Shown piece after piece: positions 40-50,295 of a stretch of 64,000 bases of DNA. This DNA is from Escherichia coli phage vB_EcoS_Ace: the sequence record MT833283.1, one strand, 5' to 3'. The translations under genes and the position numbers were made by a program. Every line of letters starts with the position of its first letter. Position 1 is the first letter of the stretch. The notes under the pieces were generated by a model, which searched no databases, was not told the DNA's origin, and saw nothing but the letters and a program-made list of their open reading frames with translations.

Positions 40-774
40 TTAGGCAACTTTTAATTTATCAATGAATTGTTGCGGAGTGGTACTATATTCCGCGCGTTCT
101 TCCTCGGTCATACCTTCCCAACACATTTTTAAACGTTCGGCTAGGAATTGATAATCGTTATCATCATCAAGCGATTCATCAATAAAGGTTTCACCGATCA
201 ATGTTACGCCGATTGATAGGATATCATTAACGGCTTGAGCGTCCAGCGTTTTAAATCCAGCACTTGCCGCCGCCGATAATACACCTTTATGATCATCAAT
301 CATTGTAAAATCAGCGTTAGGATATAGCTGTTTAAACAGTTCAAAGTAATAAGATTTATATACAGCGTCTTTGCTGTGATATATTTCGCTAACCTTATTT
401 GCATCAAAGTATTTATGTAATGTATCGCGGGAAAATACGCGAATATTACTATTTCCGCGCCCTCGCAAGCCTTGTTTGCGTAAATAAAAATAATCGCTTT
501 TAGACATTAAGCGCGCGGTACAAATTATATTTAATGTATTTGCATCATTCATACATTGGCGCATATATTCAACCAACGGCAATAAAGAATCTTGCATAAT
601 TAAATCATGTTTGCAGGCTTCGCGGGAATACTTAACTAAATCTAAATTCCCGTTATCATCAAAGCAAGGTGCTACACGATGGAAAGAATTTATAATCGTT
701 CCGTCTAAATCCCAAATCATAACGCGGGAAATATGCGGGAAAGCGCGGGTAATATTCATGTTGACTTGATTCAT
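40..774 (-). CDS. dmp: 5'-deoxyribonucleotidase, HAD family (T5 Dmp-like)
   Basis: 244-aa ORF; HAD motif I (IWDLDGTI); position and size match T5 pre-early dmp as recalled. Confidence 0.75.
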   Translation of the reverse strand: MNQVNMNITRAFPHISRVMIWDLDGTIINSFHRVAPCFDDNGNLDLVKYSREACKHDLIMQDSLLPLVEYMRQCMNDANTLNIICTARLMSKSDYFYLRKQGLRGRGNSNIRVFSRDTLHKYFDANKVSEIYHSKDAVYKSYYFELFKQLYPNADFTMIDDHKGVLSAAASAGFKTLDAQAVNDILSIGVTLIGETFIDESLDDDNDYQFLAERLKMCWEGMTEEERAEYSTTPQQFIDKLKVA

Positions 775-861
775 TTGTTACATTCTCCATTTAAGGGATT
801 TAGGTTAATTCAATCTTGCCAGCTAATTATATTAGATTAGCTGGCAATGTTCAATTAACTA

Positions 862-1254
862 TTAGTTAGTGAGGCCATACGCTAGCGCGTCACCGATAAA
901 GGAAAGATCTTCACCATGTACGCTAGAACGGATACCCGCGCAAGTATAAACCATTGCGCTAGCTTCGGGATTGCAGACCGGACACGGCTTAACAACTGCA
1001 AACGCTAGACCTGATTTAAGCGCATCAATAATGATTGTTTGCACTGTCAAAGTATCAGCGTAAACGCCTTTTGCTTTCGTATGGCTTGCCACTTTGCCGG
1101 TATCATAAGCAAAGGTAGTAACCTGCAAAGCGTCGTTATAATTCAGCAAATCGAAATTAACTTGCCCCGCTTCGACGTGATAACGTTCGCCATTAGAGTA
1201 AACTAGAACGATGGAAGAAGTAGCGCGATCAAAAGGAATGTTTTGGTTTTTCAT
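862..1254 (-). CDS. hypothetical pre-early protein (130 aa)
   Basis: ORF in track; same strand and tight spacing with dmp/A1; no recognisable motif. Confidence 0.5.
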   Translation of the reverse strand: MKNQNIPFDRATSSIVLVYSNGERYHVEAGQVNFDLLNYNDALQVTTFAYDTGKVASHTKAKGVYADTLTVQTIIIDALKSGLAFAVVKPCPVCNPEASAMVYTCAGIRSSVHGEDLSFIGDALAYGLTN

Positions 1255-1290
1255 GTTTATGACTCCAGATTGTTTAATTACGGGATTAAT

Positions 1291-1569
1291 TTATTTATTG
1301 ACTTCTAAACTTACAACAAAGTTTAAATTTGTTTCTTTCCACACATCGGGAATATCTTGTTCCTGCAAATAATCCCTCGCTTCATAATCAGTTTCAAAGG
1401 AATAAAAATCCCCTGATTCAATTATATAAGAATGACCATTTATCGGATTTTGATAAATATAACAGTCACCATCTTTTATATTACGGTATACAGTGCCATG
1501 CCCGATATTATCAATGGCATATGTATCAGACATATTTTTACTAGATGGAAGATTAATTTTAATCGTCAT
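1291..1569 (-). CDS. hypothetical pre-early protein (92 aa)
   Basis: ORF in track directly downstream of A1 on the same strand. Confidence 0.5.
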   Translation of the reverse strand: MTIKINLPSSKNMSDTYAIDNIGHGTVYRNIKDGDCYIYQNPINGHSYIIESGDFYSFETDYEARDYLQEQDIPDVWKETNLNFVVSLEVNK

Positions 1570-1621
1570 TTAATTATCCTTTTATTAATGGCGGCATATT
1601 TCAACCGCCGATTAAATTTAA

Positions 1622-3286
1622 TTATGCAAAGAATTTACCGTTTTTGAAATCAATCAAAGTACGTTGCCCGTTTGCATAGGTAATTAAATGCGTTTGCGTC
1701 CAGCTTGACGCGCCCACGTTGTAGCCCATATCAAGGGAACCAGCAACGCCAGCGGTATAAACGCCGCCGTAAATGCTAGCCGTGTGAGTGTGACCAGTGT
1801 TAAGGCGTCCCAACTTTTTAAACTGCTTAGGATTGCCCCGACTGCCGTTAATGCCATTGTGACCATGTACGCCGCACTCAATGCCAGCGATTTTAAATGA
1901 CTGGTCAGTAGTCAGGAAAATGGCGTTAAATACACATCCTGCAACGTAGCGGAGGGCGTAATCCAATACGTTAAAGGTATCATTCTGTTTTGCAATTGCA
2001 GAGTAAATCGCAGCGTTTAAGCTGTGGTATAGTTCGGCGTTTGCGGGGTCGTCTTTAATGTTAGCGTTACGATCATCTAGCCAGCGTGAAAGAGCTAAAT
2101 CATGGTTAGATTCAACAATGATTGTTTGAGAGAAATCACGCTCCATTGATTCTAAAACGCGTCCAGTATCGATAAGATCATCTAAAACCTTGTCACGTCC
2201 TGCGGCGTACTGTTTAGCAAGGAATACACCACTTGCGCGGTTATGATGATTGCGGGATGTAAAATCGTGTACGTCATGGATAAACTGATATTTCGGTTTA
2301 AGAATATCAAGCAATGAATTTTCACTAGCCCATGACGCAATGGCGCATTCATCATCTAATTTTTCGGCGTGAATATCGCCATATTGCAGACCTAAAACAT
2401 GATCAGATGTTTCAAAACATCCGGTAGGCATAGCGCAAATATTCAAATCGTAGAACATCCCGCTTTCGTCCATTGTTTCAAGCTGGCGAACAAAAAATTC
2501 GCCGTCGTCGTCAAATTCTACTAATAAAGCGCCGTAATTATGCAGCGCCTCAGCTTTTTGACCTGCTTTCTGCTGAATATAGTTTTTAAGTGTAGCCGTT
2601 CCGGTGGAGTACATACGGCGTACTACTTCACCTTTTAACGCTGGCACACTTTCAGCGGTGATTTTAGCGTGACCAATTGCCAGACCTTCGATATTTAAAG
2701 CGGTGGCGGTTTCTGCGAATCCTGAAAGCGGATAATCAGCCGTTGGCAAAACGTTAATTTCAGCCATGAAAGCAAAGCGGCGGTTATTTAAAAATACGTT
2801 TTTATCACAAACATATTTATCAAATGCGGGATCGTATTTAATACCGTTTGCACCTTCCCCGTTCTGGAATCCATTTTTATTATAAATGAATTTACTGATT
2901 AGCAATTCAGCGCCGATATATTCAGCGAATTTTTCCAGACTTGCTAAAAAGTTTTTATGCGGGAAAGTATTATTTTGAACCGACGTTAGAATAAAACGGC
3001 GACCGGATTTAACTTCCCATTGTTCAACGGTACTAGAAACAATCCCCGCCGCTTCGGGGCGATCATCATTTTTAATCGCCTTTTCAGCTTTTGCCGCTTT
3101 CGGTTTCGCTGGCTTATTTGCTTCCAACCAGTCACAAATTGCGGTCGAATGTTTCGGCGTATCATAAACAGCTTTTGAAATATCGTCGCAAACTTCCAAT
3201 TTAGTAGCGCGTAAACGCTTACCGTAGAAGTTAAAATCTGCGGCCATTTTCAAAATTTGAGCTTGTTTTTCTGCGGAAATATTCAT
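1622..3286 (-). CDS. A1: A1-like pre-early protein with C-terminal calcineurin-like metallophosphoesterase (Mre11/SbcD-type nuclease) domain
   Basis: 554-aa ORF; motifs GDIHAE, VESNHD, GHNGINGSRGN, GHTHT in the order expected for metallophosphoesterases; size matches T5 A1 as recalled. Confidence 0.7.
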   Translation of the reverse strand: MNISAEKQAQILKMAADFNFYGKRLRATKLEVCDDISKAVYDTPKHSTAICDWLEANKPAKPKAAKAEKAIKNDDRPEAAGIVSSTVEQWEVKSGRRFILTSVQNNTFPHKNFLASLEKFAEYIGAELLISKFIYNKNGFQNGEGANGIKYDPAFDKYVCDKNVFLNNRRFAFMAEINVLPTADYPLSGFAETATALNIEGLAIGHAKITAESVPALKGEVVRRMYSTGTATLKNYIQQKAGQKAEALHNYGALLVEFDDDGEFFVRQLETMDESGMFYDLNICAMPTGCFETSDHVLGLQYGDIHAEKLDDECAIASWASENSLLDILKPKYQFIHDVHDFTSRNHHNRASGVFLAKQYAAGRDKVLDDLIDTGRVLESMERDFSQTIIVESNHDLALSRWLDDRNANIKDDPANAELYHSLNAAIYSAIAKQNDTFNVLDYALRYVAGCVFNAIFLTTDQSFKIAGIECGVHGHNGINGSRGNPKQFKKLGRLNTGHTHTASIYGGVYTAGVAGSLDMGYNVGASSWTQTHLITYANGQRTLIDFKNGKFFA

Positions 3287-3394
3287 AACTAAATCAACTC
3301 CTATAAAGGGATAAATATTAATACTGGCAATATTGCCAAATATAACGCCTTACCTGAAGTGAGGACAATTTAAAAGGCGTTATAATTTGCAATA

Positions 3395-3640
3395 TTATTC
3401 TAGAATTGGCATAAGACTAGAACTAAAACCGCAACTAATAGCCAGCGTTAAAAATATAATCGCTAGATATTTTTGTTTATTAGCTTGACGTTTAAACATA
3501 TCAGCGGCATAAGCTGAATTAATGCCGATAATAGAGATTATATATTTGCCGTAATTAAATATAAATATAGCGGCAACTATAAATAAACCTAAAATAAACG
3601 CTTCACTAGGGAAGAAGATCATTTTAATAACTCCGGTCAA
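3395..3640 (-). CDS. small hydrophobic membrane protein (81 aa)
   Basis: ORF in track; two predicted hydrophobic helices; between A1 and A2. Confidence 0.45.
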   Translation of the reverse strand: MTGVIKMIFFPSEAFILGLFIVAAIFIFNYGKYIISIIGINSAYAADMFKRQANKQKYLAIIFLTLAISCGFSSSLMPILE

Positions 3641-3680
3641 AGGGAAATTATAGCGGGGAATAATCCCCGCTAATTAAAAT

Positions 3681-4097
3681 TTATTCACCTGCGGCCTGTT
3701 TTACTTCCTCCGCTACGCCTAACAATTGCGCTACGGCTTCCAGCGTTTCCAGTTTTGCACTTTCCAGACTTGCCAGATCATCAGCGTCTTTGATAACGCC
3801 AGCATCAATGGCATGTTTAGCCATAACGCGCACATAGTGAGCTTTACGGACACTAGACCCGCCGCCAACTTTACGCGGTTTATCACTTTTCTGGTACGCT
3901 TTTGCGCTTGTCAGTTTAGAACGTACAGAAACAGGGCTTGCAGCGCCAACGGCGGCGGCAATTTCTTTCAGGCCGTCACTGTTAGCAAATTCAATTCCGC
4001 TTTTAGCGACCATTTCAGAATACATAGAAACAGCCTTTTCGGTGTTTTCTTCGTTCCAAGAGAATTTTGCGGTTTTTTCGGTTTTAACGTTAGACAT
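3681..4097 (-). CDS. A2: A2-like pre-early DNA-binding protein (138 aa)
   Basis: ORF size and position right of A1 match T5 A2 as recalled; Ala/Lys-rich; assignment by synteny only. Confidence 0.45.
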   Translation of the reverse strand: MSNVKTEKTAKFSWNEENTEKAVSMYSEMVAKSGIEFANSDGLKEIAAAVGAASPVSVRSKLTSAKAYQKSDKPRKVGGGSSVRKAHYVRVMAKHAIDAGVIKDADDLASLESAKLETLEAVAQLLGVAEEVKQAAGE

Positions 4098-4383
4098 AAT
4101 TTAATACTCCATTCAATTATTAATTAAGGGATTATGATTAACTAAATGTTAATCGCTATATATTCTATTAGCTAGAATATATAACGGAAACATTTTATTT
4201 TTATTTCCAGTTTCAAGCAGTTTATTAGTTCCCGAATATATTTATATTCTCACCTTATCCGGCTTGCCAGAGAATTAATAAGGCAACATTGTATTTATAC
4301 GCTGTTTATTATTCCGTTCACGCTAGGAATATTTCGAGTTATCTTTATTGCCTAACTAAGCATGATATGTAAGGCGCATTAAT

Positions 4384-4635
4384 TTATGCGATAGCTTGCC
4401 ATTTATCATCTTTCTGAATGATTTTTACAACGTCGCCAGATTTAACACGGACGTTATAAATAGGCTTGCCGTGGTTACTGCGTTCCGTTTCCGCATAGAC
4501 CGCTTCAATCTTATCAAAGGGATCAAGCGCCGCACCTTTAATACGTTCGGCTTTTCCGGTTAATTCATCCGTTTTAGTTACAAAAGGAATGAATACAGAT
4601 TGACCTACTTTCGGCGCGGTAATAACGTTTTGCAT
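4384..4635 (-). CDS. hypothetical protein (83 aa)
   Basis: ORF in track, minus strand, pre-early region. Confidence 0.45.
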   Translation of the reverse strand: MQNVITAPKVGQSVFIPFVTKTDELTGKAERIKGAALDPFDKIEAVYAETERSNHGKPIYNVRVKSGDVVKIIQKDDKWQAIA

Positions 4636-4767
4636 TTTTAATACTCCGGTTTATTGGGGATTATTCCACAATAGCGCCTCGATACTTTGAAACGCTATTA
4701 GATTATAATCCGCTAGGAGTTAGCCTAAACATTACCGTTATCCAAATTGTTAAAGAGCAGTTACTAT

Positions 4768-4790
4768 GGGGAACATCTTAAAACCTATCG
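4768..4790. repeat. inverted repeat arm (GGGAACATCTTAAAACCTATCGG)
   Basis: 22/23 match to reverse complement of 5051-5073. Confidence 0.6.
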
Positions 4791-4799
4791 GCTAGCGTG

Positions 4800-5018
4800 T
4801 CAAGCGTTTTTTAAACTTTTTTCGATTTGATGTGAGTTATATAAATCAATCATTATATTACGCCACACCATTTCCAGACCTTGCTGCTTACCTTTCTTGT
4901 ATTGCTTGAATCTGTATTTTACAGATCTTTGCGCTACTGTCAACAAATTTTTTGTTCTGCTATCCAGTGGGCTAGCAGGTTTTGCACTAATCACTAAAGC
5001 GTTTTTTGATTTGATCAT
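4800..5018 (-). CDS. small basic protein (72 aa), flanked by 23-bp inverted repeats
   Basis: ORF in track; Lys/Arg-rich; bracketed by IR 4768-4790 / 5051-5073. Confidence 0.4.
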   Translation of the reverse strand: MIKSKNALVISAKPASPLDSRTKNLLTVAQRSVKYRFKQYKKGKQQGLEMVWRNIMIDLYNSHQIEKSLKNA

Positions 5019-5050
5019 TATCGTCGATTCCTTATAATATCTAAGTTTAC

Positions 5051-5073
5051 CGCCGATAGGCTTTAAGATGTTC
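5051..5073. repeat. inverted repeat arm (CCGATAGGCTTTAAGATGTTCCC)
   Basis: partner of 4768-4790; the two arms bracket ORF 4800..5018. Confidence 0.6.
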
Positions 5074-5770
5074 CCTAATTTTTAAAGAGCATGGCAGGGT
5101 TTTGAAAGGTCAAACAGACTGTCAATCGCTGTTATCCCCGCCGTGTAGTTCGTCATTGCCGCCCTACGTGATAAATAATAGGAGAATACCGAGAAGGGCG
5201 CAAGCGTATTTTTGTAAAGAAACGTAAAGAAAACCACTACTCGCAAACTTCCAGCGGCGCATTAAATTTAATGAAACGGGCGCGCGAATAACACCAAAAC
5301 AACCATTTTAGCAAGTAATTTTTTCATTTATATCTGCTCTAGGGTACTTGACAAAATCTAAAATCCTCGTGGTGAGGTTTTCTCGGTGTACCCCTTATGA
5401 TTGCCTATCTTTTCCTTTGAGGCGCTTAGAATGCGTTACAGAGCGTTTTAGACCCTGTTAATAACTTATACAAAAAGCAAAAATGAAATTTAATGAGTTA
5501 TCCACTTGATTTTTCAAAAAAGTATTTTCTGCTGTTATTTTTCATTGACAAATAAGTCTGGACGTGCATCAGAGCATTAGCAGACTAATAATCGCTAGGA
5601 TGATAATCACGCTGGTGGATTGTAACAGCCGAAACAGTTAGTAGACTATTAATACTCTAAAAATCTATTAGCCAACTAACTATTTCATAATATATAATAT
5701 ACACATAAATTAATGAGAAATAATAACTATGAGAAACTATCGGGCTAAGTGAGAACCACTATCATTTAGG

Positions 5771-5840
5771 TTATGCACAAAGCTATCCACAGCACAAAAT
5801 AACTTGACGCAATAGGCGACGTTTTGGCGACTTATCCACA
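5771..5840. promoter_or_regulatory. cluster of DnaA-box-like 9-mers (TTATGCACA, CTATCCACA, TTATCCACA)
   Basis: three matches to TTATNCACA within 70 bp; further copies at 9460-9468 and 9521-9529. Confidence 0.5.
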
Positions 5841-5880
5841 GACTTATATACAGGTTATCCTACTGTATAAATATACAGGG
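5831..5880. repeat. left arm of ~50-bp inverted repeat carrying DnaA box TTATCCACA and LexA-box-like palindrome CTGT-N8-ACAG
   Basis: about 45/50 identity to reverse complement of 9421-9470. Confidence 0.7.
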
Positions 5881-6127
5881 TAGAATGGTAGCAGTAACAA
5901 CCGCAATCAAATTTAAGCGGCCTAGAACGCGCTACACGGCGTTTTCTCACTGCTACCCTTATTATAATAAAGCCTTGTGTACGCTTACAGAGAGCTAGAA
6001 ATAGAAAACGCGCGATTATCATAAAAATGGGCAGTAGGCAAGGAATAAAAAACCTTTTCTTTTTTCTTGCCCCTAGCGAACAATTATCTATATCATTCAC
6101 TCACCGATTAACGAGGGAGACAAAGAA

Positions 6128-7129
6128 ATGTCTACTGTAAGAATTGCAGTACCAGCAAACGCCACTATTATTAAGGGTAGTTTGCGCAACCTGATAGACG
6201 GATCAAGTCCAGCAAGCCTACAACATACGGCGGCAATGGTTGAAAAGATTCACTATGATATTTTAGATAATAATGATACTCATTATTCAGTCGATGATTT
6301 CACGCTATTACTAGACCAGACAAGGGCGCTAGTAATTTTCAACCGTGATTATCATATTTTCCGTAATAGTCGTGGAACTGATATTGATTTTATCATTGTT
6401 GGCTATAGTGAGTCTCATAGTGGTTACATTGCGCGATTATATAACGTGCAAGAAAAGGAGCAGGTAACAGCAACAAAAGTAAATAATATCCTGCTGGATA
6501 GTGTCGGATCGTTATTAAATAGTATCTGGCGTGAATTATCATCCAGTTATAAAGGTGCGGATAGTGACGCAATCGAAACAACTGGCGTATTGTGTTTTGA
6601 ACGCGCTAGCGGTAACATGTTGATTCCTAACGATTATTTAGAGAATGGGAATGAATCAAACGTTGTAAATGCTGGATTTACACTTTTACCGCTTGACATT
6701 GTAACAAAACAGGCTGTACAATCTCAAACTTCAAGCGCAAATGCGCAAACTACTGAAAATAAAGGAAATATTATGTCTAAAGTATCTTCTATCGTTGCCG
6801 CTAATAAATCCGCCGTTGTAAACGCTGCTAAACTGGAAGCAGGTAAAATTGCACTGACTCAAATCACAAAAGTAGCGGCGAAAAAAGCGCCGTTTATTAT
6901 CAAGGGTTATATTGATACGCCTATCGGTCGGGTAGTTATTGCTAACCTGCTGAGTGTAGCAGTTGACCAGTACGCCCCGAATAACGCGAAAGCAAAAGCG
7001 GTAGCAGGCGCGGCAATGGAAGCGGCAATGCTAGAAATGGTACAATCTTTTAACATCGCTGAAATGATCGACGAAATGGTAAAAGGTATTGACATTTCCA
7101 CCTTTACCCAAAACGCTGAAAGCGAATAA
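6128..7129 (+). CDS. hypothetical protein (333 aa), Ala-rich C-terminus
   Basis: ORF in track; GAGGGAG Shine-Dalgarno 6 nt upstream of ATG; first gene of the plus-strand block. Confidence 0.6.
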   Translation: MSTVRIAVPANATIIKGSLRNLIDGSSPASLQHTAAMVEKIHYDILDNNDTHYSVDDFTLLLDQTRALVIFNRDYHIFRNSRGTDIDFIIVGYSESHSGYIARLYNVQEKEQVTATKVNNILLDSVGSLLNSIWRELSSSYKGADSDAIETTGVLCFERASGNMLIPNDYLENGNESNVVNAGFTLLPLDIVTKQAVQSQTSSANAQTTENKGNIMSKVSSIVAANKSAVVNAAKLEAGKIALTQITKVAAKKAPFIIKGYIDTPIGRVVIANLLSVAVDQYAPNNAKAKAVAGAAMEAAMLEMVQSFNIAEMIDEMVKGIDISTFTQNAESE

Positions 7130-9420: not shown

Positions 9421-9470
9421 ACTGTATAAATATACAGTAGAATAACCTGTTGATAAGTCTGTGGATAACG
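9421..9470. repeat. right arm of ~50-bp inverted repeat (TACTGTATAAATATACAGTA plus DnaA box TGTGGATAA)
   Basis: reverse complement matches 5831-5880. Confidence 0.7.
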
Positions 9471-9554
9471 CCTCAAAATCACTAGGATTTTGTCAAGTCA
9501 GATCGTGCTGTTAATAAACCTGTGGATAACTTAAATAACAGTGTTTCTCACTTC

Positions 9555-9700
9555 GCTTTGTAAATGCGAGTCATTCTCATTATCATTAGCGTTTCCCTTC
9601 CTAAATGCAAATCATTCTCATTCGTATTCCGGTAGTCAAATGATAACTGTTCTCATTCGCATTCAACTTCTCAAATGCGAATCATTCTCATTATCATTCG
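9555..9700. repeat. three direct copies of ~25-bp motif AAATGCRARTCATTCTCATT(ATCATT)
   Basis: copies near 9563, 9603 and 9672 plus a partial copy near 9640. Confidence 0.6.
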
Positions 9701-9735: not shown

Positions 9736-10476
9736 TGTGCAAATCCGACATTTGCCCCCACGGATTACGTGCCAGTGTGCATGTGCGAATCCGACAATTT
9801 TTGGTAGTGTGCAAATCCGATGGGAAATATTTTTTATATGTGCGAATCCGACAATGAATTTTCCTAAAAACTCCAGCAATCCACAACTGCGATGCAATCC
9901 AGCTGGATTTACTAGAATATGTGCAAATACGACAAGTGTTAAGGTGTGCAAAACCGACAAGATTTTTGTGACTTCGATGAGAGGGTGTATGATTGTGTGA
10001 GTTTGGGGAGAAGTGCGAATCCGACGAGGTTTTTGGGAGGAACTATGGAGGGTGCAGCTGTGGTGGTGCTTCAGCACCGGTTTGCTGCGTTTTTGGGGAT
10101 AATGTGGGATGTTTTGGCTAGAATTGAGATTAGTGGAGATAAAGCGAAATTTTATTAGCAAAATGGGGCAAAATCGCTTGACAAGTGAAAATTCCTGTGG
10201 CTCTAAAAACTCAGGCAAATACGGGCCTTCGGCCCGAAATAATGCTGCTATTTTCAGTGTTCCTAAAAACTTTGGAGACTCCTATCAATGTGCAAATCCG
10301 ACCATAAATTTCTAGAAACATAGTGTGCAAATCCGACAGTAAAATCCAGAAATGTGTTTTGGAAAAATGTTGTCTAGAAATAACCGCCCTCCCCATAACC
10401 GCCCTGTATTAAACCGCCTATTGCTGGAGTTTCTAGGAACAGGAGAAACTGCCCTATAACATGGGCAAATACGACA
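9736..10476. repeat. iteron-like array, about 10 same-orientation copies of 15-bp motif TGTGCRAATCCGACA
   Basis: copies start near 9736, 9782, 9808, 9839, 9920, 9945, 10012, 10289, 10324, 10463; irregular spacing; interleaved TTCCTAAAAAC/TCTAGAAA motifs and three AACCGCC repeats at 10381-10420. Confidence 0.65.
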
Positions 10477-38146: not shown

Positions 38147-38160
38147 GAATTTATGAATAT

Positions 38161-38189
38161 ATTATACAGAAAATTTCGACATTAAGCAA
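38161..38189 (-). promoter_or_regulatory. sigma70 promoter (TATAAT / TTGCTT) reading into tRNA cluster
   Basis: minus strand; 17-bp spacer; next downstream genes are tRNA-Ser(GCU) and tRNA-Met. Confidence 0.6.
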
Positions 38190-38494: not shown

Positions 38495-38524
38495 ATTTGA
38501 TTCCTCTCTCAAATTTATAAATAT

Positions 38525-38553
38525 ATTATACAGAAATTTTCTATATTAAGCAA
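38525..38553 (-). promoter_or_regulatory. sigma70 promoter (TATAAT / TTGCTT)
   Basis: minus strand; 17-bp spacer. Confidence 0.6.
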
Positions 38554-38571
38554 GTGAAAATTTCTGTATAA

Positions 38572-38591
38572 TAGCCCTCGCTTAGAGGGCT
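38572..38591 (-). terminator. GC hairpin, possible terminator after pnuC
   Basis: stem AGCCCTC/GAGGGCT immediately 3' of pnuC stop; U-tract weak. Confidence 0.35.
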
Positions 38592-50200: not shown

Positions 50201-50230
50201 TATTAAATCCTTCTGTCAAATTAGAAGTAT

Positions 50231-50259
50231 ATTATATTTAAATTTCACTCAGTAAGCAA
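50231..50259 (-). promoter_or_regulatory. sigma70 promoter (TATAAT / TTGCTT)
   Basis: minus strand; 17-bp spacer. Confidence 0.55.
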
Positions 50260-50277
50260 ATGAAATTTAAATATAAT

Positions 50278-50295
50278 AGCCCCGAAGGGCTATTT
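50278..50295 (-). terminator. GC hairpin, possible terminator
   Basis: AGCCCCGAAGGGCT hairpin (GAAG tetraloop-like) between two minus-strand genes. Confidence 0.4.

What the first reader, a model, noticed from the sequence alone, without database searches (positions are those of the whole stretch)
4768..5073. Small basic ORF bracketed by 23-bp inverted repeats in the pre-early region
GGGAACATCTTAAAACCTATCGG (4768-4790) and its reverse complement (5051-5073, one mismatch) flank ORF 4800..5018 (72 aa, Lys/Arg-rich); both arms are followed by TTAAAGAGCA. The arrangement resembles a miniature mobile or invertible unit, or a long stem that would sequester the whole gene in RNA.
Basis: seen in the sequence. 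Interest (0 to 1): 0.4.

Follow-up and report, generated by a model that had tools for sequence, protein, structure and literature searches.

The report
Inverted repeat bracketing T5-type hdi gene
A 24-base inverted repeat encloses the cell-division-inhibitor gene (hdi) of a T5-like phage; it is the already described but unexplained IRA/IRA' repeat of phage T5, its two arms change together across phage genera, and one arm is also the core of a classical strong promoter.

Summary
The repeat is real: arms 4769-4792 and 5052-5075, 24 nt, one mismatch, unique in the window. It is not new. The window is the left terminal repeat of a T5-like phage. The repeat matches IRA/IRA' of T5 'Repeat Region 1', which has no assigned function. 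The ORF (4800-5018, minus strand) is the homologue of T5.008 = Hdi, a proven FtsZ inhibitor.

New here:
- The left arm is the spacer and -10 of promoter P-D/E20. The hdi stop codon lies inside its -35.
- P-H22 lies inside hdi.
- The arms are the best conserved part of the locus and co-vary (11 pairs changed on both sides). Changes in the -10 hexamer are mirrored in the distant arm. This holds in Tequintavirus, Epseptimavirus, Sugarlandvirus and Myunavirus.
- The cargo between the arms varies: hdi, another small ORF, or both.
- A direct repeat, GCTCTTTAAMAAYT, marks the outer borders.
- No flipped isomer occurs in 431 phage records.

Best reading (confidence about 0.45): selection keeps base pairing in read-through leftward pre-early RNA, a long-range helix that closes the cargo cistron and is probably cut by RNase III. 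Which strand pairs is only suggested (9 G.U against 3 A.C sites). DNA-level cassette exchange remains a serious rival.

The parts
5052..5075 (-). Right arm. It is the 5' arm in the leftward (hdi-sense) transcript, GGGAACAUCUUAAAGCCUAUCGGC, and matches T5 IRA/IRA'. It lies in no ORF and no recognisable promoter.
   Evidence: It has the highest mean pairwise identity of the locus (0.924). It co-varies with the other arm.
4769..4792 (-). Left arm. It is the 3' arm in the hdi-sense transcript, GCCGAUAGGUUUUAAGAUGUUCCC. It is also the spacer, the -10 (TAAGAT, 4780-4775) and the discriminator of the P-D/E20-type promoter.
   Evidence: GenBank AY692264 annotates P-D/E20 at 4664-4738(-), which encloses the T5 arm at 4684-4707. 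The S114 record labels the homologous site 'similar to P-D/E 20'.
4775..4803 (-). Promoter of the P-D/E20 type, TTGACA-17-TAAGAT. Its -35 (4803-4798) contains the hdi stop codon TGA (4802-4800).
   Evidence: 10 of 12 consensus positions. Four positions of the TTGACA are invariant and a fifth nearly so in 45 sequences; two rows read TTGATA. A TTGACA also overlaps the end of the cargo ORF in Klebsiella phages and in My1; in Klebsiella it contains the hdi stop codon, as here.
4800..5018 (-). hdi, the homologue of T5.008: a 72-aa basic protein that inhibits FtsZ in T5.
   Evidence: Pfam DUF7416, E 3e-39. 68% identity to T5.008. Coding signature: pairwise identity at codon positions 1/2/3 is 0.83/0.85/0.70. 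The function was shown in T5 by Mahata et al. 2023, PMC10714956.
4916..4943 (-). Internal promoter of the P-H22 type, TTGACA-16-TAAAAT, inside the hdi coding sequence. It drives the downstream genes (T5.007 homologue, A2, A1), not hdi.
   Evidence: 11 of 12. P-H22 is annotated at the homologous T5 position. PH22 is active as a pre-early promoter by primer extension (PMC7472727). It is absent from the divergent hdi of phiR201 and S124, which still keep the arms.
5019..5051 (-). hdi 5' UTR between the 5' arm and the ATG, with the Shine-Dalgarno AAGGAA at 5033-5028. It is strongly conserved (GGCGGTAAACTTA...TATAAGGAATCGACGATA).
   Evidence: Mean pairwise identity 0.911.
5074..5091 (-). Upstream copy of the border direct repeat (RNA sense TGCTCTTTAAAAATTAGG), immediately 5' of the 5' arm.
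   Evidence: It is conserved where the sequence further upstream switches between three unrelated contexts.
4742..4759 (-). Downstream copy of the border direct repeat (RNA sense TGCTCTTTAACAATTTGG), 9 nt 3' of the 3' arm. It is present in the 'type A' flank only.
   Evidence: The same arrangement occurs in Klebsiella Sugarlandvirus and there are three copies in My1. In T5-type flanks an inverted copy (AGAGCG) replaces it and lengthens the helix.
5091..5145 (-). GC-rich hairpin (GGCGGGG...CCCUGCC, with a 36-nt insertion in the loop compared with T5), just 5' of the upstream direct repeat. It looks like a weak terminator but lacks a proper U-tract, and some relatives lack it.
5327..5354 (-). 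Candidate leftward promoter, TTGTCA-16-TATAAA. Its transcripts would carry both arms.
   Evidence: It is conserved in 32 of 36 relatives, about 220-295 nt upstream of the 5' arm. Its activity has not been shown.

Best explanation
The repeat is the Epseptimavirus-type copy of T5's IRA/IRA'.

Shown:
- It brackets one small pre-early cargo cistron, here hdi, the FtsZ inhibitor.
- Its promoter-proximal arm is the core (spacer, -10, discriminator) of the strong promoter P-D/E20, which drives the downstream genes T5.007-A2-A1-dmp.
- What evolution keeps is complementarity between the arms, not a particular sequence.

Inferred:
- The pairing is used in RNA. Leftward transcripts that start upstream (candidate promoter at 5354-5327) and read through hdi carry both arms.
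- These arms fold into a helix that closes the whole hdi cistron. The helix is 24 bp in this phage, 28+7 bp in T5 and 40 bp in TrudiRoth.
- A perfect duplex of this length is a substrate for host RNase III. Cleavage would excise a short hdi mRNA with paired, protected ends.
- Cleavage would also uncouple the dose of this toxic protein from the essential A2-A1 message, which has its own promoters, P-H22 and P-D/E20.

The conserved arms and the border direct repeat also serve as junctions at which cargo and flanks are exchanged between co-infecting phages.
For: Identity and context:
- T5 has the same repeat around T5.008.

Constraint:
- The arms are the most conserved segments: 0.924 and 0.912, against 0.83/0.85/0.70 for the three codon positions.

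Covariation over 22 distinct arm haplotypes:
- 95.8% of cells pair.
- 11 pairs changed on both sides.
- Covariation score 0.272, against 0.138 in shuffles (0 of 500 shuffles reach it) and 0.02-0.05 when the partner columns are slid.

Mirrored changes between the arms:
- GGGAAC and GGGTAC alternate in both arms between clades.
- In the L102 lineage the outer 13 nt are replaced in both arms, and the -10 TAAGAT>TAGAAT is mirrored as ATCTTA>ATTCTA.
- In DT57C, TAAAAT is mirrored as ATTTTA.
- phiR201 has a matched 1-nt insertion in both arms.
- Klebsiella phages (28 bp) and My1 (28 and 38 bp) have the same architecture with other sequences.

Independence from spacing: units of 268-502 nt keep the arms. 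This fits RNA pairing better than DNA looping.

Strand:
- In 100 loci (18 haplotypes) the non-Watson-Crick positions give G.U in hdi-sense RNA at 9 sites and A.C at 3. Counted by locus this is 112 against 11.
- Background transitions are unbiased: 64, 71, 66 and 73.
- The sense duplex is more stable than the antisense duplex in 38 of 40 sequences.

Fold: the helix is present in the MFE and centroid structures of the 371-nt RNA, z = -4.8. The 3' arm has no local alternative structure.

Upstream promoter: a promoter-like element is conserved in 32 of 36 relatives.
Against: - There is no transcript-end or structure-probing data. Co-transcription of both arms rests on a promoter-like motif only.
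- A hairpin plus a U-poor tail just upstream of the 5' arm could stop part of the read-through.
- The strand asymmetry is not significant by site (9 against 3, one-sided p = 0.07). It is reversed in My1, where the antisense duplex is slightly more stable.
- Covariation alone cannot separate RNA pairing from gene conversion between the arms.
- RNase III cleavage is inferred from general knowledge of the enzyme and was not tested.
- The RNA model does not explain why the distal arm should be complementary to a promoter core specifically.
- This window has the weakest version of the helix (24 bp).
Confidence: 0.45

Rival explanations
1. DNA-level cassette borders. The arms and the GCTCTTTAAMAAYT direct repeat are conserved 'handles' at which homologous recombination between co-infecting T5-like phages swaps small pre-early genes. 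The arms stay alike through repeated gene conversion, or through descent from a duplicated promoter segment, and no RNA role is involved.
For: - Cargo differs between identical arms: hdi alone in most phages; an extra ORF plus hdi in TrudiRoth, saus176N, PNJ1902, GSW6 and Klebsiella phages; an unrelated 56-aa ORF alone in DT57C and HK6.
- Homology to many Tequintavirus records starts exactly at window 4769. In other records it stops at about 5095-5102.
- Two alternative left flanks switch at the end of the arm.
- My1 has two consecutive cassettes separated by the direct repeat.
Against: - Recombination handles need not be inverted copies of each other.
- Arms of 24 nt, 260-430 nt apart, are poor substrates for sustained gene conversion over inter-genus distances.
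- Conversion between inverted arms should also produce flipped isomers, and none is seen in 431 records.
- G.U-type differences are tolerated and common, while A.C-type differences are rare. A purely DNA process would not produce this.
- The two explanations do not exclude each other.
Confidence: 0.2
2. Paired operators. A phage or host DNA-binding protein (for example the A1-dependent factor that shuts off pre-early transcription) binds both arms. One site lies over the P-D/E20 core and one upstream of hdi. The protein loops out and silences P-H22 and P-D/E20.
For: - One arm overlaps the spacer and -10 of a strong promoter, and the other lies about 280 bp away with a second promoter between them.
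- The inner part of the arm (GCCGATAGG) is the best conserved part across genera, although promoter spacers are normally free to vary.
- Shut-off of pre-early transcription is known but unexplained (PMC10644984).
Against: - The outer half of both arms is completely replaced in close relatives with near-identical neighbouring genes (L102 lineage). The arms also differ in Klebsiella phages and My1. A protein site would be held in sequence, not merely in complementarity.
- Centre-to-centre spacing is not kept: 283 bp here, 267 bp in T5, and about 430 bp where the unit is about 450 nt, so there is no helical phasing.
- Under a DNA-binding model, A.C-type and G.U-type differences should be equally frequent.
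Confidence: 0.1
3. Divergent promoter pair. The right arm is the core of a rightward promoter of the same type as P-D/E20, as with the back-to-back early promoters elsewhere in the genome. The repeat then simply reflects two copies of one promoter type.
For: - The geometry fits: each arm, read outward, carries the same -10-like hexamer.
- T5-type early promoters do occur as inverted pairs in this window, at 38524-38541/38556-38573 and at 38160-38177/38556-38573.
- A separate plus-strand promoter-like site, TTGATC-16-TATAAT, lies at 5011-5038.
Against: - No acceptable -35 lies 16-18 nt from the right arm's hexamer in the window. Read from the sequence, the candidates CTAAGT, TCTAAG and TAAGTT match TTGACA at 1-2 of 6 positions. 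The promoter scan lists no plus-strand site there. The T5, Klebsiella and My1 sequences, read the same way, also show no good -35.
- Two independent promoters would not need identical hexamer variants, yet TAAGAT, TAGAAT, TAAAAT and TATGAT are each matched in the partner arm.
- No rightward gene follows for about 1 kb.
Confidence: 0.07
4. Miniature transposable element (MITE-like) or site-specific invertible switch.
For: Terminal inverted repeats with nearby flanking direct repeats. The content varies between phages.
Against: - The arm sequence occurs at only these two places in 64 kb.
- The direct repeats do not abut the arms: 9 nt away on one side, overlapping by 2 nt on the other.
- The direct repeat is a fixed conserved motif across genera rather than a duplicated target.
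- No transposase or invertase is among the ORFs and annotated genes of the terminal repeat.
- The two My1 cassettes carry different arms.
- There are no flipped isomers in 431 records.
Confidence: 0.03

Closest known systems
IRA/IRA' of 'Repeat Region 1' in the phage T5 left terminal repeat (named by Wang et al. 2005; discussed by Davison 2015 and in bioRxiv 10.1101/866236)
   Same: Same position (between the T5.007 homologue and the divergent pre-early control region). The arm sequence is homologous, with 23 and 22 of 24 bases identical to the T5 arms. The bracketed gene is the same, T5.008.
   Different: Here the helix is shorter (24 bp, against 28+7 bp in T5). The left flank is of another type and carries a direct rather than an inverted copy of the GCTCTTT motif. 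The literature I could read treats the region as 'untranslated' and gives no function. I could not read Wang 2005 or Davison 2015, so I cannot say whether they noted the overlap with P-D/E20.
T5.008 = Hdi, the FtsZ-targeting host division inhibitor (Mahata et al. 2023, PMC10714956); Pfam DUF7416
   Same: The ORF is a clear family member: E 3e-39 and 68% identity to T5.008.
   Different: The N- and C-termini differ and the protein is 5 residues longer. Inhibition of FtsZ by this variant has not been tested. The paper does not mention the repeat or the embedded promoters.
RNase III processing stems that bracket 16S and 23S rRNA in bacterial rRNA operons, and RNase III sites between T7 early genes (established knowledge)
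   Same: Distant inverted repeats flank a functional unit in a polycistronic transcript and form a duplex of 20 bp or more. In those systems RNase III cleavage releases the unit with paired or hairpin ends.
   Different: Here the unit is a 219-nt protein-coding cistron. One arm doubles as a promoter core. Cleavage has never been shown. T7 sites are local hairpins, not gene-spanning helices.
5'-3' fold-back of type I toxin mRNAs (hok-type 'fbi' closure; established knowledge)
   Same: The mRNA of a small toxic protein is closed by long-range pairing of its ends.
   Different: In hok the closure blocks translation and antisense binding and is relieved by 3' trimming. Here the Shine-Dalgarno sequence lies inside the loop and is not sequestered by the helix. 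No antisense RNA is known.
PeSL 'mobile regulatory cassettes' of T4-type phages (Arbiol et al. 2010; recalled from memory, not read here)
   Same: Small early genes sit in a plastic region, each bordered by a repeated regulatory motif that joins a promoter and a stem, and these motifs act as recombination junctions.
   Different: As I recall them, PeSLs are direct repeats of a local stem-loop plus promoter. Here the stem is formed by two distant arms that enclose the gene, with a separate direct-repeat motif outside.

Membership tests
T5 IRA/IRA' (Repeat Region 1) | Inverted repeat in the left terminal repeat, between the T5.007 gene and the divergent pre-early promoter region, flanking T5.008 | tested here: met
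   The gene order dmp-A1-A2-T5.007 homologue lies to the left. T5 arms are at 4684-4707 and 4951-4974, around T5.008.
T5 IRA/IRA' (Repeat Region 1) | Sequence homology of the arms to those of T5 | tested here: met
   GGGAACATCTTAAAGCCTATCGGC against T5 GGGTACATCTTAAAG(C/T)CTATCGGC.
Hdi / DUF7416 | Significant match to the family profile and to T5.008 | tested here: met
   PF24188, E 3e-39, 133 bits against a cut-off of 27. phrog_4718. BLASTP against T5.008, E 1e-32, 68% identity.
Hdi / DUF7416 | Inhibits FtsZ ring formation | not testable with these tools
   Shown only for T5.008 (PMC10714956).
Sigma-70 promoter P-D/E20 | -35 and -10 hexamers at the position homologous to the annotated T5 promoter | tested here: met
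   TTGACA-17-TAAGAT at 4803-4775. The T5 annotation 4664-4738(-) encloses the arm. Conserved in 45 sequences.
Sigma-70 promoter P-D/E20 | Transcription initiation in vivo in this phage | not testable with these tools
   Activity is known only for T5 (record annotation, and classical literature recalled from memory).
RNase III processing helix | Continuous double-stranded RNA of about 20 bp or more | tested here: met
   24 bp with one G.U, duplex -44.5 kcal/mol. The helix is present in the MFE and centroid structures. This is prediction only.
RNase III processing helix | Both arms lie on one transcript | tested here: inconclusive
   A conserved promoter-like element lies upstream, but no transcript data exist and a hairpin lies between it and the 5' arm.
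RNase III processing helix | Staggered cleavage that depends on rnc | not testable with these tools
   No literature links RNase III with T5 hdi.
Structured RNA element (general) | Compensatory base changes that keep the pairs | tested here: met
   11 of 28 pairs changed on both sides. Covariation score 0.272 against 0.138; 0 of 500 shuffles reach it. Caveat: this is equally expected for any process that keeps the arms complementary.
Structured RNA element (general) | G.U tolerated and A.C avoided on the transcribed sense | tested here: inconclusive
   9 G.U sites against 3 A.C sites, p = 0.07; by locus 112 against 11. Reversed in My1.
MITE / IS-like mobile element | Several copies, or copies at unrelated sites | tested here: not met
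   The arm occurs only at these two places in the window. The locus is the same in all relatives.
MITE / IS-like mobile element | Target-site duplications that directly abut the terminal repeats | tested here: not met
   The direct repeat is 9 nt from the left arm and overlaps the right arm by 2 nt. The motif is conserved across genera.
Invertible DNA switch | Both orientations found among genomes | tested here: not met
   0 of 431 records cover 80% or more of the flipped-configuration query.
Intrinsic terminator | Stem followed directly by a U-tract | tested here: not met
   The helix is followed by CCAUAGUAAC (read). The terminator scan gives no hit at either arm.

The most novel reading that the evidence does not exclude
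The pre-early regions of Demerecviridae may be built from exchangeable single-gene cassettes with a common grammar: border motif GCTCTTTAAMAAYT, then a 5' arm, a ribosome-binding site, a small host-takeover gene, and a 3' arm that is also the promoter core for the next unit. In this reading the distal arm exists to pair, in RNA, with the transcribed copy of that promoter. Each cassette would then be cut out of read-through RNA by RNase III, or be otherwise insulated. The same conserved arms would also let cargo genes be swapped between phages. This would be a combined RNA-processing and gene-shuffling module that has not been described.
Probability: 0.2. Interest if true: 0.65.

Novelty: already known. 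Interest (0 to 1): 0.4.

Why it matters
Three conserved repeat regions of the T5 first-step-transfer DNA have been known for decades, and Repeat Region 1 has no assigned function. This analysis turns it into a concrete, testable object. It is a helix-forming pair of arms around the toxic FtsZ inhibitor Hdi. It is fused to the classical promoter P-D/E20. Its complementarity, not its sequence, is conserved across at least four genera.

If the RNA model holds, it would explain how a T5-like phage sets the dose of a lethal host-takeover protein separately from the essential A1/A2 genes on the same strand. It would also add a gene-spanning processing helix to the known ways phages handle their mRNA.

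The exchange of cargo between fixed arms matters for annotation too. DT57C and HK6 carry an unannotated ORF there, and several records annotate spurious plus-strand ORFs. It is also a point to keep in mind when engineering T5-like therapeutic phages.

Tried and rejected
- Rfam scan of 4000-6500 at E<=1 gave no family.
- An exact-word scan of IMG/VR with an internal hdi 18-mer gave 18 loci. Six were unrelated chance matches (L006, L008, L011, L013, L014, L018) and were discarded.
- A metagenome scan with the UTR motif gave 60 loci, of which only 12 were T5-like.
- C>U mutational bias on the non-template strand was considered as the cause of the G.U excess. It was rejected because background transitions are balanced at 64, 71, 66 and 73.
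- A terminator role for the helix or for the GCTCTTT motif was rejected. There is no U-tract next to the helix. The hairpin before the upstream motif has weak z-scores (-1.0 to -2.0) and is missing in some relatives.
- A promoter for hdi between the direct repeat and the ATG was looked for. No site of 9/12 or better lies on the minus strand there, and hexamers read by eye were poor.
- DNA looping with helical phasing was rejected because the spacing varies.
- The invertible-switch reading was rejected.
- A palindromic operator inside each arm (AGCC-N4-GGCT) was noticed, but it is not kept in Klebsiella phages or My1, so it was dropped.
- Davison 2015 (PMC4743489) is not held in the library. 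Wang et al. 2005 was not available.
- A search for 'RNase III' together with 'bacteriophage T5' found nothing relevant.
- Protein structure prediction and the large representative search were not used, because the protein's function is already published.
Full report
**What the window is.** The region is 90-97% identical to the left ends of many Salmonella and Escherichia T5-like phages (Demerecviridae, mostly Epseptimavirus): 514 matching records, 203 covering 80% or more of a 1.2-kb query. The ORF map and the annotated relatives give the classical leftward pre-early operon dmp - A1 - A2 - T5.007 homologue at 40-4635 on the minus strand. A rightward operon starts at 6128. The finding lies in between, inside the left terminal repeat, which is the first-step-transfer DNA.

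**Check of the observation.**
- The repeat is real. Arms are 4769-4792 and 5052-5075, 24 nt, one mismatch, 259 nt apart.
- With up to three mismatches the arm occurs nowhere else in 64 kb, and none is expected by chance.
- The 72-aa ORF is on the minus strand.
One copy lies before the left arm and the other after the right arm. They form a direct repeat outside the unit. As GCTCTTTAAMAAYT it occurs exactly twice in the window.

**It is a known feature.**
- T5 itself (NC_005859) has the same repeat, with core arms at 4684-4707 and 4951-4974, around T5.008.
- Davison's comparison of 25 T5-like phages describes 'Repeat Region 1' (4682-5310) as holding IRA, IRA' and IRB. [quoted passage not shown]
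- The ORF belongs to Pfam DUF7416 (E 3e-39) and is 68% identical to T5.008.
- T5.008 is Hdi. It binds the FtsZ pathway genetically, dissolves Z-rings within minutes of infection and gives T5 a competitive advantage (PMC10714956).
- Homologues occur only in T5-like phages: 42 clusters.
- Third codon positions vary most (pairwise identity 0.70, against 0.83 and 0.85), as expected for a real gene.

**Anatomy in the direction of transcription (window minus strand).** From upstream to downstream:
- A candidate promoter, TTGTCA-16-TATAAA, at 5354-5327. It is conserved in 32 of 36 relatives.
- A leader of about 240 nt, with a very conserved block and a GC hairpin at 5145-5091.
- The border motif TGCTCTTTAAAAATTAGG at 5091-5074.
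- The 5' arm at 5075-5052.
- A conserved 33-nt UTR with the Shine-Dalgarno sequence at 5033-5028.
- hdi at 5018-4800.
- The 3' arm at 4792-4769.
- Nine further bases, then the second copy of the border motif at 4759-4742.

Two strong promoter-like sites lie inside this unit.
- TTGACA-16-TAAAAT at 4943-4916, inside hdi. It is the homologue of T5 P-H22.
- TTGACA-17-TAAGAT at 4803-4775.

In the second site the -35 contains the hdi stop codon. Its spacer, -10 and discriminator are the 3' arm itself. GenBank AY692264 annotates P-D/E20 at 4664-4738(-), which encloses the T5 arm. The S114 record labels the homologous site the same way. PH22 has been confirmed as a pre-early promoter by primer extension (PMC7472727). 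It follows that hdi can be expressed only from upstream. P-H22 transcripts carry only the 3' arm, and P-D/E20 transcripts carry neither arm.

**Comparative evidence.** I collected 100 loci with both arms from annotated phages, IMG/VR, metagenomes and assemblies that encode Hdi homologues.
- The arms are the best conserved part of the locus: 0.924 and 0.912. This is higher than first and second codon positions of hdi. The 5' arm has no coding or promoter role that would explain it.
- The arms co-vary. On 22 distinct haplotypes, 95.8% of cells pair and 11 of 28 pairs changed on both sides. The covariation score is 0.272, against 0.138 for shuffles (0 of 500 reach it) and 0.02-0.05 for slid partners.

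Examples of mirrored change:
- GGGAAC and GGGTAC alternate in both arms between clades.
- C-G, U.G and U-A all occur at position 6.
- phiR201 has a matched one-base insertion in both arms.
- In one lineage (L102 and relatives, Hdi 64% identical) the outer 13 nt of both arms are replaced by an unrelated but still complementary sequence.
- Changes in the -10 hexamer of P-D/E20 are mirrored in the distant arm: TAAGAT/ATCTTA, TAGAAT/ATTCTA and TAAAAT/ATTTTA in DT57C.

The architecture goes beyond the genus:
- Klebsiella Sugarlandvirus phages have a 28-bp repeat of different sequence around two ORFs, one of them Hdi-like. TGA again lies inside a TTGACA -35, and the border motif is present on both sides.
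- Pectobacterium phage My1 belongs to another subfamily. It has two consecutive bracketed cassettes, with 38-nt and 28-nt repeats, separated by three copies of the border motif. The second cassette holds the Hdi homologue and ends in TTGACA-17-TATGAT.

**Variable content.**
- The distance between the arms ranges from a unit of 268 nt to one of about 500 nt.
- Some phages carry an extra 52-aa ORF ahead of hdi.
- DT57C and HK6 keep the arms but carry a different 56-aa ORF instead of hdi. It has no Pfam match and only weak similarity to the extra Klebsiella ORF.
- Homology between Tequintavirus records and this window begins exactly at 4769. Other records stop at about 5095-5102.
- Two unrelated left flanks switch at the end of the arm. 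Three unrelated contexts switch at the upstream border motif.
- The arms and the motif are therefore also mosaic junctions.

**RNA or DNA?** Conserved complementarity with free sequence change points to base pairing in a single strand, and RNA is the only abundant single-stranded form.
- The 371-nt sense RNA folds with the 24-bp helix in both the MFE and the centroid structure, z = -4.8. The antisense strand also folds this way, z = -3.3.
- In the sense RNA the non-Watson-Crick positions are G.U at 9 sites and A.C at 3. Counted by locus this is 112 against 11.
- This is not a mutational artefact, because transitions in the surrounding alignment are balanced.
- The sense duplex is more stable than the antisense duplex in 38 of 40 sequences.
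- By site, however, the test is not significant (p = 0.07), and in My1 the antisense duplex is slightly more stable.
- I therefore treat 'pairing is selected' as well supported, 'it acts in the leftward RNA' as likely, and 'RNase III cuts it' as inference from the known preference of that enzyme for perfect duplexes of about 20 bp or more.
- Helix length differs between phages: 24 bp here, 28 bp plus an internal loop plus 7 bp in T5, and 40 bp continuous in TrudiRoth.

**Rivals.**
- Invertible switch: excluded as far as databases can show. No record covers 80% or more of the flipped configuration, 0 of 431.
- Transposon-like element: fails on copy number, on target-site duplications and on the absence of any recombinase gene.
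- Paired operators: fit poorly with arms whose sequence is replaced while neighbouring genes stay the same, and with unphased spacing.
- Divergent promoter pair: the geometry resembles the back-to-back early promoters elsewhere in the window. But the right arm has no -35, and independent promoters would not need identical hexamer variants.
- DNA-level cassette exchange: real as a pattern and compatible with the RNA model. As the sole explanation it does not account for why the two handles must be inverted copies, nor for the G.U excess.

**Verdict.** The feature is already described in T5 (IRA/IRA' around T5.008/hdi), so it is not a discovery. What this analysis adds is:
- the exact relation of the arms to hdi and to P-D/E20;
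- strong covariation across four genera;
- cargo exchange between fixed arms;
- the border motif.

The mechanism remains unproven. My best estimate is a gene-bracketing RNA helix, probably processed by RNase III, at a confidence of about 0.45.

Noticed in passing
window 5137-5182 (minus-strand leader upstream of the 5' arm): A 46-nt block (CCGCCGTGTAGTTCGTCATTGCCGCCCTACGTGATAAATAATAGG) is about 98% identical even in Klebsiella Sugarlandvirus phages, which share almost no other DNA with this region (H98/H99). It is far more conserved than the surrounding genes, it has no Rfam match, and it has no function I could find. It may be a leader RNA element or a DNA site.
   Followed up: partly
L124 (DT57C, KM979354) locus 1426-1596 minus strand; L038 (HK6) between arms 1811-2078: Between the IRA arms these phages carry a 56-aa ORF (MKIKETANNITVEQAEAVIAFCANHGSEIAYHHKDGKIFCEMQFSWENSNLKENEK) in place of hdi. 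Neither record annotates it. It has no Pfam match and is weakly similar to Klebsiella phage ORF AmPhEK80_0008.
   Followed up: partly
window 5011-5038, plus strand: A promoter-like site, TTGATC-16-TATAAT (10 of 12), runs antisense to the hdi start and ribosome-binding site. It would start a rightward RNA at about 5045 that runs through the right arm. The 18-nt stretch TATAAGGAATCGACGATA is conserved well beyond what a Shine-Dalgarno sequence needs.
   Followed up: no
window 38160-38177, 38524-38541 and 38556-38573; also 50230-50278: Perfect or near-perfect 18-nt inverted repeats of the type GAAAATTTCTGTATAATA look like T5 early promoters placed back to back or divergently, some 14 nt apart and others 378 nt apart.
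   Followed up: no
window 5744-5878 and 9422-9556: A 135-nt inverted repeat (75% complementary), 3.5 kb apart, with DnaA-box-like TTATCCACA motifs. It appears to correspond to Davison's IRC-spacer-IRD and IRD'-spacer-IRC', his candidates for the injection stop signal.
   Followed up: no
window 9861-9880 and 10420-10439: A further 20-nt inverted repeat (95% complementary), 539 nt apart, near the right end of the terminal repeat and the injection-stop region. I did not check whether it brackets a gene.
   Followed up: no
L001 (vB_SenS-3, MT004791) locus 4355-5154; T5 NC_005859 4915-5022: Annotation of this locus is inconsistent between records. vB_SenS-3 annotates four short plus-strand ORFs and misses hdi. 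T5.009 (35 aa) overlaps the 5' arm and the UTR and is probably not a gene.
   Followed up: partly
L028 (phiR201) and L029 (S124), hdi interior: These phages carry a divergent hdi allele of the Klebsiella/My1 type (...MKRRFK.YKRGMQQGLPMIWDNM) that lacks the internal P-H22 promoter. So P-H22 is not a universal part of the unit, whereas the arms and P-D/E20 are.
   Followed up: partly
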